IMG/VR virus record: IMGVR_UViG_3300047160_005424
Coordinates: 1,209-65,208 of that record
Direction: 5' to 3' (one strand)
DNA: 64,000 nt
Origin: a virus
Position numbers: made by a program. Numbering within the stretch: position 1 is the stretch's first letter; every line of letters begins with the position of its first letter. Shown here one piece after another: positions 30,001-33,000 of the stretch.

Positions 30001-33000
30001 GTCGCCGCAGCAAAGTCTTCGTCATCGCCATCAAAGCGATCATGGAGTCGGCTAGCGAGAAGCTCAATGAGCTAGAAGTCGGCAAGGACATCGCCAGGCA
30101 TCTCTTCTCCGTGATGAGCGACCAAGCCAGGATATCGGATTATGTCGCTATCTTCGAAACTGCCGAAGTGATCAAGAAGAAGCGCGGAGAGTGCGATCTC
30201 GAGAATATCCTCATGCATCGTGTCGAGGACCTGATGAGTCGTGTCGAGAAGCGCGAGCAGCATCTGATGAACCTCGTCGAGCACGTCATCGACAAGGTGA
30301 GTGATCAAAAGAATTAAGAGATGGGCGCCTGGCGGTTCTCCGAAAACCCGAGTCCCGTTGCCAGGCGCTCGGTGCAATCTCCGGGACTCGGCACCTTGGC
30401 CCCGGCTTCGAGGCAACTCCCTCCGACAACAGGCCTCGAGTCGGGGTCCTTTTTCAGGGCGAACCTAATTTCGGTTCTGATGCGAACCTGGATCAAACGA
30501 GATTTTCTGTTTATAATCAATGACTTAGCAGAGTGACGCGATCTTGGGCCTCGGAAGTCGCCACGGTTGGTTCCAAATTTCTGTTAAAGATCAACTACTT
30601 ACAATTTTTTTCTTTAAGCTATTTACTTTTACCTTTCCTTTACTTATATTCTCCTTACCGCCCCTTGACGGGCGGGGAAAAGAAAGTTGGAGAAATTAGA
30701 TGCCGCGCCAAATGGGAGAGCTCCGCAGACTTAACCTGGAGTGGAACGACCTCGTCACCATCGCCAGGGATCGCGGCATGCGCCGGGTCCAGTCTCAGGA
30801 CAACAACCTTCACTGGTATCGCCTCGCGACTCGCGCCCACTTCCAGATGTCGCGGACCGAGGCTCGCGACCGGGTCAGGTCGCTCCGCACTTCGATCGCC
30901 CCGTTCTTCGCGCCTAACGCATCTAACGTCCAGGGCCTCGACACCTTCGGCGTCGAGATCGAGATGCACATGCCTCGCGGCGTGAACGCTCACGACATCG
31001 CCCAGGCGATCCGCGACGCCGGCGTCCTCTGCCAGGTCGAGGTGTACGGCCACGTAACCAGGACTCACTGGAAGATCGTGACGGACGGCTCCTTGGGTTA
31101 CTCCACCGGCCGCGAAGTCGTCAGCCCGCCGCTCTCCGGCGAGGCAGGTCTCGACCAAGTTCGCAAAGTCTGCCGAGTCCTCACCGCGAAGGGCTGCAAG
31201 GTTAAGCTAGACTGCGGTCTGCACGTTCACATCGGCGCCCAGAACCACCAGGACATCGGCTGGTTCAAGAACATGCTCGAGATGACCAGCCACTTCGAGA
31301 ACGAGATCGACAGCTTCATGGCGCCGTCCCGTCGTCGCGGCGGGCAGCACGCCAACTCCTGGTGCCAGTCAGTCATGATCCGTCGCGCCGACTTCGACGC
31401 GGCCCAGAATTTGGCGCAGCTCAGCGCCGCCTGTGGTCAGCCGACGCAGCACGGAGCTCGCTCGCACTACCGCTACCGGAAGCTGAACCTCCTCTCGTTC
31501 ATTCAGTCCGGGACGATCGAGTTCCGCCAGCACCAGGGAACAGTCGAGGCTCTGAAGACCGAGATGTGGGTCAGGTTCCTGCTCCGCATGTCGACTAAGG
31601 CAGCAGCGATCGGCGTCGAGACGCTTCGCCAGTCTCTCGCGGTGATGCACCGCTCCCTCGAGGCGCTCCTCAGCTTCCTCGACTGCAGCCTCGCGGAGCG
31701 CAACTACTTCCTCGAGCGTCGCAACTACTTCTTGACCCGCGCGGTCTAACAAACAGGAGATGAAAATGACCAAGTACCAAGACAACAACGGGACGATATT
31801 CGAGGCGGACACGCCGGAGGAGCTGGTTCGCTACCTCCACGAGGCGAGCTACGCCCAGGCTGAGAGCGACGCTCTCTTCATGGAGGAGATGGCAGGCAGG
31901 ATCAGGTTCATGTCAGGCCAGGAAGTGCGTCACTCCTCCTGCGAAGAGTTCGTTCAAGACCTGATCAAGGCCAAGCAGCTCGCGATCGTCGAAGACGAAG
32001 AAACGGAGAAGGAAGATGAAGCACAAGACAAGAGCTAAGACGAACGGACGAGAGAAGAGCGGCCTGGTGAAAATCCCGGCCGACGTCCAAACCGGGAAAG
32101 TGAGGTCAATGACTATGCACGAGAAGCGGCCGCGACGCAGACTCTACTGGGCCTACGGCTCCAACCTCGACGTCAAGGCTATGCGCTACAGGTGCCCAGA
32201 CGCGAGGAAGTTCCGCCGGCTCTACGCGACTCAGTGCGAGCTCGTGTTCCGCGGAGTCGCAGATGTGGAGATCGTCGACGACAAGTCGATCGTCACTCCC
32301 GGCGGCTTGTGGTGGATTTCTGAGAGAGACGAGAGTGCCCTCGACTCTTATGAAGGCGTGGCCAGCGGCTTCTACGAGAAGCTGTACTTCGACATGGTCA
32401 TCGACGGGCGACCGCAGGAGATCATGTTCTACAAGATGAAGCGTCACCAGGGCGGCATCGTACCGCCTAGCGCGTCTTATTTCGGTACGATCCGCCAGGG
32501 CTACAAAGACTTCGGTCTCTCGGTGGACGCCTTGTTCGGAGCTCTCGAGCGGAGTCACGATCGCAAGACGTGGACGCAGGAGCTGCGGGACCGCTGGCAC
32601 CGGAAGGGCAAGCAGCCGCTCATGCAAGTGCTGCGATGAGCTGGCTGGGAAATCACCCTGCCTCGAGACACGAGCAGCACGTGGCAGGGTGAAATTCCCC
32701 AATGATTTTGACAGAGGAGAAGAAGTGATGCTGTGTGACGAGATGCAGGCGGCAACTTACCTCGCCATCGAGTACCCGAAGTTCGACGCGATCCAGGAGC
32801 TGATCAAGGCTTCGAGAAAATTCGTCCTCGCTCCAGATTTCACCGCGGCGGCAGACGGCTTGATCGAGAACGTCAAGGAGCTTGACAGGATCACTCCGTT
32901 CTGCCGGCTGCCATTCCCGCTCTGCTGGTTCGAGCTGTGTCAGAGCGAGCGGCCACACTTCATGGCGGCACCGATGCACTACCAGCAGTTTCAGCGACCG

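What the first reader, a model, noticed from the sequence alone, without database searches (positions are those of the whole stretch)
30323..30454. Second kissing-loop element, fused to a terminator, 6 nt after a stop codon
A 13-bp hairpin abuts a 5-bp hairpin, and their loops share a perfect 9-bp complement; a terminator follows. Three G-U pairs favour the plus strand. The architecture resembles 12192-12274 with unrelated sequence, hinting at a recurring RNA fold. Possible roles: 3' exonuclease block, small RNA, or stop-codon read-through signal (the frame after the UAA at 30315-17 stays open to 30536).
Basis: partly seen in the sequence, partly recalled or inferred. Interest (0 to 1): 0.65.

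Follow-up and report, generated by a model that had tools for sequence, protein, structure and literature searches.

The report
Phage operon-end terminator with pseudoknot-capable hairpins
At the end of a soil phage's 18-kb early operon, a strong transcription stop signal follows a stable RNA hairpin whose loop can pair with the next stretch of RNA; the stop signal is ordinary, and the extra pairing is unlikely to be chance but is unproven because the phage has no close relatives to compare.

Summary
The described sequence features are real. H1 (30323-30370, 11+2 bp) and a 16-bp, U5-tailed terminator T (30398-30454) fold far better than shuffles. The 5-bp H2 does not. The loop complement is a perfect 10 bp (30348-57/30382-91). 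Three of its nucleotides sit in stem ends, so with H1 it is equally well an H-type pseudoknot or a competing hairpin.

Chance is unlikely: about 3e-4 for this hairpin, and 0 of 70 genome shuffles match the three-helix layout. Real phage DNA gives similar hits about 0.2 times per genome, mostly from repeat arrays.

T is the only strong rightward terminator inside the 26-kb rightward gene block. It separates the early operon from a block with its own promoter.

No relatives exist. The upstream protein is an orphan, the one other contig with readable DNA is identical, and Rfam and a custom model find nothing. Covariation and expression therefore could not be tested.

Read-through or frameshift signalling is not supported.

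New leads: the H1 and T loops share CTCCGAMAAC, and both complement ribosome-binding sites of the phage's own genes.

Verdict: a compound operon-end terminator, with tertiary pairing plausible but unproven.

The parts
29922..30317 (+). Last gene of the early rightward operon. It encodes 131 aa from ATG 29922 (143 aa from GTG 29886), ends in UAA at 30315-17, and is an orphan protein.
   Evidence: ORF list. The only matches in 5.8 billion and in 1.8 billion proteins are the protein itself. No Pfam or PHROG family.
30323..30370 (+). H1: a strong hairpin with an 11-bp lower stem (30323-33/30360-70, one G-U), a 3-nt bulge, a 2-bp top and a large loop.
   Evidence: dG -26.7 kcal/mol, z -3.5, 0 of 200 shuffles fold as well. 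Present in the MFE and centroid structures of the larger folds.
30371..30395 (+). H2: a weak 5-bp hairpin (30371-75/30391-95) with a 15-nt loop, directly abutting H1.
   Evidence: dG -6.5 kcal/mol, z -0.6, 54 of 200 shuffles fold as well. Not distinguishable from chance on its own.
30348..30357 (+). S2a: the 5' strand of the perfect 10-bp complement, lying in the H1 loop (its last nucleotides overlap the top of H1).
   Evidence: Inverted repeat I4, 100% complementary. Duplex -21.4 kcal/mol. A match of 10 nt or more has probability 2.9e-4 in loop shuffles.
30382..30391 (+). S2b: the 3' strand of the 10-bp complement, lying in the H2 loop. With H1 it gives H-type pseudoknot topology (L1 14 nt, L2 2 nt, L3 11 nt), or alternatively a competing nested hairpin.
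   Evidence: The nested alternative hairpin has dG -23.5 kcal/mol. It becomes the MFE once the first 1-4 nt of H1 are occluded.
30398..30454 (+). T: an intrinsic terminator with a 16-bp stem (one bulged U, two G-U pairs), an 18-nt loop and a U5 tract at 30450-54.
   Evidence: dG -29.7 kcal/mol, z -4.0. The + strand is favoured (-29.7 against -25.2). It is the only strong terminator-like site on the + strand within 12263-38777 in my genome-wide scan.
30338..30347 (+). Loop motif CTCCGAAAAC in H1. It overlaps TTCTCCGAA (30336-44), the exact complement of the ribosome-binding cassette TTCGGAGAA of several rightward genes.
   Evidence: Direct repeat D4. Only two exact CTCCGAMAAC sites occur in the window. 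A 9-of-10 match between the two loops has p about 0.004. Four RBS windows have a complement of 8 nt or more, against 0.5-0.6 in controls (p 0.006-0.016).
30421..30430 (+). Loop motif CTCCGACAAC in the terminator loop. The adjacent ACTCCCTC (30416-23) complements the GAGGGAG(T) ribosome-binding sites at 12883, 18018 and 19278.
   Evidence: p 0.014 against loop shuffles, 0.07 against random genomic segments.

Best explanation
This is the 3' end module of the phage's early rightward operon (about 12300-30317).

Proposed mechanism:
- RNA polymerase transcribes H1, which folds at once.
- It then transcribes a short segment that can either close the weak H2 or pair 10 bp with the H1 loop.
- It then meets T, a long-stem, U-tailed intrinsic terminator, which releases the transcript at about 30450-54.

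T insulates the next gene block (amidoligase onward), which has its own sigma-70-like promoter at 30622-50. H1, locked further if the 10-bp pairing forms a pseudoknot or kissing fold, together with T leaves a very stable structured 3' end of about 135 nt. This end should block 3'-to-5' exonucleases and so stabilise the last cistrons. Those cistrons are cut free at their 5' side by the hammerhead ribozyme at 29073-29137.

Shown here: the helices, their stability against shuffles, their strand, the position of T, and the non-random 10-bp complement.

Inferred: that termination happens at T, that the 10-bp helix forms, and that the module stabilises the mRNA.
For: - H1 and T fold far better than shuffles: z -3.5 and -4.0.
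- T has a U5 tract, two G-U pairs, and a 4.5 kcal/mol preference for the + strand.
- T is the only strong + strand terminator within the 26-kb rightward block. It lies 80 nt after a stop codon.
- It is followed by an AT-rich spacer with direct repeats, a promoter-like site and a 5' hairpin before the next gene.
- Stem length: T has 16 bp, against typical stems of 7-9 bp. The phage's other main terminator (39057-39016, - strand) also has 16 bp. In pLS20, a 15-bp stem is what makes an operon-end terminator resist processive antitermination (PMC10325885).
- Clusters of two or three hairpins just after stop codons are common termination units (PMC8355165; WebGeSTer U- and V-shaped classes, PMC3013805).
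- The 10-bp complement is improbable by chance: 2.9e-4 for this hairpin and 0 of 70 genome shuffles for the whole layout.
- Hammerhead II lies 1.2 kb upstream: 36.0 bits, E 6e-06.
Against:
- No relatives, so there is no covariation for any helix.
- T alone would suffice for termination and 3' protection, so H1 and the 10-bp helix are not explained by necessity.
- H2 is not above chance.
- Nested-fold energies put H1+H2 (-35.2) near my rough, uncomputed estimate for a pseudoknot (about -32), so the extra helix may not form.
- Comparable three-helix hits occur about 0.2 times per genome in real phage DNA.
- The U tract is only 5 nt and the T loop is unusually large (18 nt).
Confidence: 0.55

Rival explanations
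1. Trans- or cis-acting regulatory 3' RNA. The terminated or processed fragment of about 135 nt (H1-H2-T) displays two C-rich loops carrying the same motif. These loops pair with ribosome-binding sites of the phage's own genes and damp their translation as early transcripts accumulate. On read-through transcripts they could also silence the amidoligase start site. The mechanism would resemble the UCCC loops of RNAIII and RsaE.
For: - The H1 and T loops share CTCCGAMAAC, a 9-of-10 match with p about 0.004.
- The H1 loop TTCTCCGAA is the exact complement of the RBS cassette TTCGGAGAA of the genes starting at 24761 and 29157. It matches 8 nt at 25073 and 7 nt at 28785 and 32016.
- Four RBS windows have matches of 8 nt or more, against 0.5-0.6 in controls (p 0.006-0.016).
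- The T loop complements GAGGGAG(T) sites at 12883, 18018 and 19278 (p 0.014-0.07).
- CTCCCTC has only four + strand copies in the window. Two of them lie in the loops of the two + strand operon-end hairpins.
- Precedent: unpaired C-rich loop motifs of RNAIII and Rsa RNAs bind Shine-Dalgarno sequences (PMC2790875).
Against: - Found post hoc.
- Any CUCC-containing loop complements Shine-Dalgarno sequences.
- The p-values are modest, and the two loops are not independent tests.
- Gene starts were called by a crude script.
- No evidence of a discrete RNA, no conservation, host unknown.
Confidence: 0.12
2. Ribosome-sensing conformational switch. H1(+H2) and the 10-bp hairpin are mutually exclusive folds, not a pseudoknot. 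A ribosome terminating at UAA, 5 nt upstream of H1, covers the foot of H1 and flips the RNA into the alternative hairpin. This would couple the fate of the 3' end (processing, decay, or re-initiation at AUG 30321) to translation of the last gene.
For: - Removing only the first 1-4 nt of H1 makes the 30348-57/30382-91 hairpin the minimum-energy fold.
- Forcing that hairpin costs only 3.1 kcal/mol in the full element (-63.3 against -66.4).
- H1 starts 5 nt after the stop codon, within reach of a terminating ribosome (inference from known ribosome footprints).
Against: - T forms in both states, so no output for the switch is evident.
- No antiterminator pairing of useful strength exists. The best pairing of S2b with the T 3' arm is 6 Watson-Crick pairs plus one G-U (read from the sequence).
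- No conservation data.
Confidence: 0.1
3. Cis-acting RNA that modifies RNA polymerase, like HK022 put or lambda nutR. A two-hairpin RNA of about 73 nt, placed after the last early gene and just before a terminator, would let polymerase (alone or with the phage's NusG-like protein) read through T into the next block.
For: - Size and shape: 73 nt, two abutting stem-loops. Put RNAs are about 70 nt with two stem-loops (PMC9378689).
- Position: between a gene and a terminator, ahead of co-directional genes.
- A second two-hairpin element sits in the leader of the same operon.
- A weak NusG-domain protein is encoded at 8922-9578: 21.6 bits, just under the 22.2 cut-off.
Against: - The two elements share no sequence, whereas putL and putR do.
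- H2 is marginal.
- T has the long stem that, in pLS20, resists antitermination.
- The downstream block has its own promoter.
- No Rfam match.
Confidence: 0.07
4. Plain tandem-hairpin terminator in which the 10-bp complement and the shared loop motif are coincidences, or relics of sequence duplication, with no function.
For: - Hairpin clusters after stop codons are common.
- Real phage DNA gives equally strong three-helix hits at about 0.2 per genome.
- The feature was picked post hoc from 64 kb.
- H2 is not above chance.
- No conservation can be shown.
Against: - The per-hairpin chance of a 10-nt complement is 2.9e-4. With 38 perfect inverted repeats of 9 nt or more in the genome, that is about 0.01 per genome.
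- 0 of 70 shuffles match the layout.
- A second instance flanks the same operon.
- The background hits elsewhere are mostly repeat arrays, which this element is not.
Confidence: 0.14
5. Programmed stop-codon read-through or frameshift signal: a pseudoknot 5 nt after UAA would drive synthesis of a C-terminally extended protein.
For: - The spacer of 5 nt and the H-type pseudoknot topology fit the general recoding layout.
- The zero frame is open to 30536.
Against: - All three frames are open across the element.
- The extension has no family match and crosses a strong terminator and then an AT-rich promoter region.
- There is no X XXY YYZ heptamer before the stop (read from the sequence).
- The protein itself is an orphan, so no extended homologues exist.
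Confidence: 0.02

Closest known systems
Tandem or clustered hairpin intrinsic terminators (WebGeSTer U- and V-shaped classes, PMC3013805; hairpin clusters, PMC8355165)
   Same: There are two to three hairpins within about 130 nt after a stop codon. The second starts directly after the first, and the last one carries the U tract.
   Different: Those classes imply no pairing between the hairpins. Here a perfect 10-bp helix interleaves with the first hairpin, and two loops carry the same 10-nt motif.
TerR of plasmid pLS20: a long-stem terminator that resists processive antitermination (PMC10325885)
   Same: It is an operon-end intrinsic terminator with an unusually long stem (15 bp in TerR, 16 bp here), in an element that may use antitermination.
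   Different: The TerR loop is 7 nt, against 18 nt here. No antitermination system has been demonstrated in this phage (only a sub-threshold NusG-domain hit). No upstream partner hairpins were described for TerR in the section read.
Two-hairpin element at 12192-12274 in the 5' leader of the same operon
   Same: The strand order of three helices is the same: hairpin, loop-to-downstream pairing, abutting second hairpin. Both have a 2-nt link between S2a and S1b, no spacer between the hairpins, and helices of 8-10 bp or more. Both lie in non-coding RNA of the same transcription unit.
   Different: The sequences are unrelated. There the large-loop hairpin is the second one, L1 is 1 nt rather than 14 nt, no terminator follows, and the element sits at the 5' end rather than the 3' end.
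HK022 putL/putR RNAs (PMC9378689)
   Same: They are about 70 nt with two abutting stem-loops, in a phage early transcript upstream of a terminator.
   Different: Put copies share sequence and act by binding the RNA polymerase zinc-binding domain. Here there is no sequence likeness between the two elements, the second hairpin is weak, and the next terminator is of a type expected to resist antitermination.
C-rich (UCCC) loop regulatory RNAs: S. aureus RNAIII and RsaE (PMC2790875)
   Same: Unpaired C-rich motifs sit in hairpin loops and complement Shine-Dalgarno regions, and the motif occurs in more than one loop. From memory, not checked in the paper, RNAIII also carries such a loop on its terminator hairpin.
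   Different: Those are independent sRNA genes with conserved sequences and proven targets. Here the element is an mRNA 3' end in an uncultured phage, with only modest statistical support.
Kissing-loop leader RNAs ending in terminators, noted by this scan in other phages (e1-3441540, e1-5347449)
   Same: Phage non-coding RNA in which a hairpin loop pairs with a partner next to or in a terminator hairpin at an operon boundary.
   Different: Those are 5' leaders, the partner is the terminator's own loop, and the pairing is backed by covariation in many relatives. Here the partner lies in a weak hairpin before the terminator, and there are no relatives. I did not test those notes.

Membership tests
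Intrinsic (Rho-independent) terminator | Stable G+C-rich hairpin on the transcribed strand | tested here: met
   16-bp stem, dG -29.7 kcal/mol, z -4.0. The + strand is favoured by 4.5 kcal/mol.
Intrinsic (Rho-independent) terminator | U tract directly after the stem | tested here: met
   The stem ends at 30448, followed by C and then UUUUU at 30450-54. The tract is short.
Intrinsic (Rho-independent) terminator | Transcript 3' ends map to the U tract | not testable with these tools
The phage is uncultured.
Tandem or cluster hairpin terminator (WebGeSTer V- or U-shaped) | Second hairpin starts at the end of the first (V), or within 50 nt (U), downstream of a stop codon | tested here: met
   H1 ends at 30370 and H2 starts at 30371. 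T starts at 30398. The stop codon is at 30315-17. Definitions are from PMC3013805.
Kissing-loop complex | Two independently stable hairpins | tested here: inconclusive
   H1 is stable (z -3.5). H2 is not above chance (z -0.6, 54 of 200 shuffles).
Kissing-loop complex | Complementary stretches lie wholly in the loops | tested here: not met
   Of the 10 bp, positions 30355-56 are the top pairs of H1 and 30391 closes H2. Only 7-8 bp are purely loop-loop.
Kissing-loop complex or H-type pseudoknot | Pairing maintained by covariation in relatives | not testable with these tools
   The only other copy with readable DNA is identical. No homologue of the flanking orphan gene was found. The custom covariance model and pattern scans found nothing.
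H-type pseudoknot | Two interleaved helices with loop lengths able to span the grooves | tested here: met
   S1 30323-33/30360-70 (11 bp) and S2 30348-57/30382-91 (10 bp). L1 14 nt, L2 2 nt, L3 11 nt. The adequacy of the loop lengths is judged from general pseudoknot stereochemistry, not modelled.
Programmed read-through or -1 frameshift signal | Extended product with coding signal or homologues; a slippery site for frameshifting | tested here: not met
   No family for the extension. All three frames are open. The extension crosses T. No X XXY YYZ heptamer is present.
HK022 put-type antiterminator RNA | About 70 nt, two stem-loops, copies alike in sequence, acting on downstream terminators | tested here: inconclusive
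   Size and two-hairpin shape are met. Sequence likeness between this genome's two elements is not met. Activity is not testable. Criteria are from PMC9378689.
Known Rfam families, including self-cleaving ribozymes (pistol, twister, hatchet, HDV-like) | Covariance-model match | tested here: not met
   No match at gathering score in the window. At E up to 10 over 29800-30800 the only overlapping hit is Scr3202 at 27.9 bits, against a gathering score of 52.
C-rich-loop anti-Shine-Dalgarno regulatory RNA (RNAIII/RsaE type) | Unpaired C-rich loop motifs complementary to ribosome-binding sites of targets | tested here: inconclusive
   The motifs are present in the H1 and T loops. RBS complementarity exceeds controls at p 0.006-0.07. 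The test was post hoc, used crude start calls, and has no RNA evidence behind it.

The most novel reading that the evidence does not exclude
The early operon of this phage is bracketed by two sequence-unrelated RNA modules of the same pseudoknotted two-hairpin topology. The 3' module is not merely a terminator. It would persist as a stable RNA of about 135 nt whose two large loops carry a shared anti-ribosome-binding-site motif. That RNA would feed back on translation of the phage's own early and middle genes, making it a phage-encoded, 3'-end-derived translational timer.
Probability: 0.12. Interest if true: 0.7.

Novelty: new variant of a known kind. Interest (0 to 1): 0.36.

Why it matters
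If the 10-bp pairing forms, this would be an intrinsic terminator unit whose upstream hairpin is locked into a pseudoknot, and one of two such modules framing a single phage operon. That would suggest a designed way to define and stabilise a transcript's two ends in a phage that also processes its mRNA with a hammerhead ribozyme.

If the loops act on ribosome-binding sites, it would be an example of an mRNA 3' end serving as a translational regulator in a phage.

If neither holds, the element is a well-built but ordinary operon-end terminator. It is still useful for annotating the early/middle boundary of this uncultured phage.

Tried and rejected
Searches for relatives:
- Megablast and blastn of the region against 50,697 phage records found nothing relevant.
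- tblastn of the upstream protein against phages, and a viral-contig scan, found nothing.
- Protein searches of 5.8 billion and 1.8 billion sequences returned only the protein itself. A second hit was a repeat-protein chance match.
- Five ENA contigs carry the gene or its 130-aa variant, but DNA was readable for only one, and it is identical over the whole element.
- The amidoligase neighbour as bait found relatives of at most 51% identity, without synteny upstream, in viral contigs and metagenomes.
- The nearest relative (DNA polymerase 58% identical) has a different hairpin over its stop codon and no equivalent element.

Pattern and model searches:
- An exact pattern scan for the two complementary 9-mers in viral contigs gave 8 unrelated chance hits.
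- A covariance model of H1+H2 hit nothing in 0.5 Mb of related loci or in five related records.
- Rfam and ARAGORN found nothing.

Other checks that led nowhere:
- CTCGAG-containing words recur near terminators, but CTCGAG is simply a very common hexamer here, with 128 copies.
- Whole-element duplex folding between the 5' and 3' modules was uninformative.
- A sliding RNAduplex target scan timed out and was replaced by exact k-mer matching.
- A crude intergenic motif census was discarded because its gene calls swallowed the region of interest.
- An origin of replication or iteron array was rejected for the structured part: each arm occurs only as its own inverted pair.
- An antiterminator role for S2b against T was rejected: the best pairing is only 6-7 bp.
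Full report
**Setting**

The window is bases 1209-65208 of a 73,659-bp IMG/VR virus record with direct terminal repeats. PHROG matches indicate a tailed phage with a baseplate: a capsid-protease fusion, large terminase, baseplate wedge and hub, and fibres. It also encodes its own DNA polymerase and primase-helicase.

Genes run rightward from about 12263 to 38777 and leftward elsewhere. The flagged element lies inside the rightward block. Upstream is an orphan gene (131 or 143 aa) ending in UAA at 30315-17. Downstream is an amidoligase gene starting at 30700.

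**Anatomy**

The sequence and folds give four parts.

- H1: 30323-33/30360-70 (11 bp, one G-U), a 3-nt bulge, then 2 more pairs. dG -26.7, z -3.5, no shuffle of 200 as good.
- H2: 30371-75/30391-95, 5 bp. dG -6.5, z -0.6, 54 of 200 shuffles as good.
- T: 30398-30414/30433-48, 16 bp with a bulged U and two G-U pairs, an 18-nt loop, then C and U5. dG -29.7, z -4.0.
- S2: a perfect 10-bp complement between 30348-57 and 30382-91.

- The complement is 10 bp rather than 9.
- Three of its nucleotides belong to the ends of the H1 and H2 stems.
- H2 is not above chance.
- Only T is clearly strand-asymmetric in energy. H1+H2 fold equally well on the minus strand.

**What the complement is, topologically**

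S2 interleaves with the 11-bp lower stem of H1. Without H2 the structure is a textbook H-type pseudoknot with L1 14 nt, L2 2 nt and L3 11 nt. With a 4-bp H2 it is a kissing pair. Formed instead of H1, it is a nested hairpin of -23.5 kcal/mol.

Forcing that hairpin costs only 3.1 kcal/mol in the whole element. It becomes the minimum-energy fold as soon as the first 1-4 nt of H1 are withheld. A ribosome stopping at the UAA 5 nt upstream would plausibly withhold them. T forms in every state. I found no antiterminator pairing of useful strength.

**Is it more than chance?**

Three tests argue against chance.

- Shuffling the H1 loop and the next 27 nt gives a complement of 10 nt or more in 2.9e-4 of trials.
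- The genome has 38 perfect inverted repeats of 9 nt or more within 60 nt, against 20.3 +/- 3.8 in shuffles. H1 and S2 are the only interleaved pair. Six of 80 shuffles have at least one such pair.
- A scan for the full layout was run: a stem, an interleaved helix, and an abutting second hairpin. Requiring both long helices to be 10 bp or more found two places in the genome, this one and 12192-12274, and none in 70 shuffled genomes.

Against this, the same scan on about 1.4 Mb of other phage DNA found four distinct places of equal strength.

- Two are arrays of one repeated palindrome or iteron in non-coding DNA.
- One lies in a coding region.
- One was not examined.

A weaker third hit in this genome sits in repeats inside a long open reading frame at 62922-65498. 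Real sequence thus yields such hits at roughly 0.2 per genome, mostly for reasons that do not apply here, since each arm in this element occurs only as its own pair.

My reading is that the pairing potential is probably not accidental, at about 55-60%. That it forms and matters is unshown.

**Role of T**

My own terminator scan of both strands finds T as the only strong rightward terminator-like site within 12263-38777. It splits the block into two units.

- An 18-kb early unit carrying replication, nucleotide-metabolism and many small genes.
- A unit starting with the amidoligase.

After T come several features that together look like a separately controlled promoter.

- An AT-rich spacer.
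- Two 24-nt direct repeats at 30504-27 and 30578-601.
- A sigma-70-like promoter at 30622-50. Its -35 region resembles the one ahead of the amidoligase in the nearest relative.
- A 5' hairpin, then the ribosome-binding site.

Stem length is also informative.

- T has 16 bp, about twice the usual length.
- The leftward late-strand terminator at 39057-39016 also has 16 bp.
- In plasmid pLS20, exactly this property makes the operon-end terminator resist processive antitermination (PMC10325885).

The phage has a weak NusG-domain protein: 21.6 bits against a cut-off of 22.2. The link to antitermination is therefore only a suggestion.

**Context of RNA processing**

A type II hammerhead lies at 29073-29137, scoring 36.0 bits against a gathering score of 37, E 6e-06. 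It sits just ahead of the last three cistrons. If active, it would leave a short mRNA bounded at its 3' end by H1-H2-T. This fits a role for the module as a 3' stability element.

**Comparative evidence: none available**

- The upstream protein has no homologue in two very large protein libraries.
- The one other contig with readable DNA is base-for-base identical.
- Amidoligase-based searches reach only relatives of 51% identity or less, with different upstream genes.
- Exact-pattern and covariance-model searches find nothing.
- Rfam has no match, including for the pseudoknotted ribozyme classes that often accompany hammerheads.

**Recoding**

The zero frame is open for 72 codons after UAA, but so are the other two frames across the structured part. 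The extension has no family. It passes through T and into a promoter region, and no slippery heptamer precedes the stop. I rate recoding at about 2%.

**New leads**

- The H1 loop and the T loop share CTCCGAMAAC, a 9-of-10 match. These are the only two exact sites in the window, and p is about 0.004 by loop shuffling.
- The H1 loop contains TTCTCCGAA, the exact complement of a ribosome-binding cassette (TTCGGAGAA) used by the genes starting at 24761 and 29157. It matches 8 nt at 25073 and 7 nt at 28785 and 32016.
- Four start regions have complements of 8 nt or more, against 0.5-0.6 for control sequences (p 0.006-0.016).
- The T loop's ACTCCCTC complements GAGGGAG(T) sites at 12883, 18018 and 19278 (p 0.014-0.07).
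- CTCCCTC has four rightward copies in the window, two of them in the loops of the two rightward operon-end hairpins.

This recalls the C-rich loops of RNAIII and RsaE, which bind Shine-Dalgarno sequences (PMC2790875). The tests are post hoc, the two loops are not independent, and my start-codon calls are crude. I keep this as the most interesting reading not excluded, at about 12%.

**The look-alike at 12192-12274**

It sits in the leader of the same operon, after a promoter-like TTTACA-17-TAGAGG, read by eye. It folds strongly (z -3.65) and has the same strand order of helices, the same 2-nt link and the same zero spacer, but unrelated sequence and different loop sizes. Two such modules framing one transcription unit is suggestive. 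It is one genome and two cases.

**Verdict**

This is a real, strong, operon-end intrinsic terminator preceded by a real stable hairpin, which is a known kind (tandem-hairpin terminator). It has an unusual and probably non-random capacity for a 10-bp pseudoknot or kissing helix, plus duplicated anti-ribosome-binding-site loop motifs. Function beyond termination and 3' end protection is inferred, not shown.

Noticed in passing
window 30336-30347 and 30416-30430: The large loops of H1 and of the terminator share CTCCGAMAAC. Both are complementary to ribosome-binding sites of the phage's own rightward genes: TTCGGAGAA at 24747, 25059 and 29143, and GAGGGAG at 12883, 18018 and 19278.
   Followed up: partly
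window 30417, 38873 (+); 7487, 39062 (-): CTCCCTC has only four + strand copies in the window. Two lie in the loops of the two + strand operon-end hairpins: T, and the 10-bp stem with 28-nt loop at 38863-38910. On the - strand, one copy lies in the 41-nt loop of the hairpin at 7469-7529, and one lies directly 5' of the late terminator at 39057-39016.
   Followed up: partly
window 30504-30527 and 30578-30601: Two 24-nt direct repeats (19 of 24 identical, 74 nt apart) lie just upstream of the sigma-70-like promoter TTTACT-17-TATATT (30622-50). They are possibly binding sites for a regulator of the amidoligase block. GCGAACCT is also repeated, at 30459 and 30482.
   Followed up: no
window 30659-30678: A short G+C-rich hairpin (CCGCCCC / GGGCGGGG) lies at the predicted 5' end of the amidoligase transcript, just before its ribosome-binding site.
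   Followed up: no
window 29073-29137: A type II hammerhead ribozyme match (RF02276) scores 36.0 bits, one bit under the gathering score, so it is missed by the default Rfam threshold. E is 6e-06. It lies directly ahead of the DUF6011 gene, whose likely start is ATG 29157.
   Followed up: partly
window 39016-39057 (- strand): The leftward late-strand terminator also has a 16-bp stem (dG -29.3 kcal/mol) and a U6 tract. Long stems seem to be the rule for this phage's main terminators.
   Followed up: partly
window 34585-34613 (- strand): A good terminator-like hairpin with a T8 tail lies on the minus strand, inside the rightward gene block (intergenic 34578-34619). It might stop antisense transcription.
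   Followed up: no
L018:17794-18128 (same phage as L017): In a relative (DNA polymerase 44-45% identical), a 334-nt intergenic stretch after a stop codon is filled with copies of the palindrome GGAGGCCTCC. This is a hairpin array at an internal operon boundary.
   Followed up: no
G001:C1:1500-1800 (record of L013): The nearest relative has a non-coding region packed with direct and inverted copies of ATAGGATAG beside an AT-rich run. It looks like an origin or a regulator-binding array.
   Followed up: no
window 63560-63960 (- strand): Inside a long open reading frame (62922-65498 in window coordinates, 858 aa) there are tandem repeats containing GGCATGCCA and a GGTGGC run. These generate many inverted-repeat hits, so they are a false-positive source for RNA-structure scans.
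   Followed up: no
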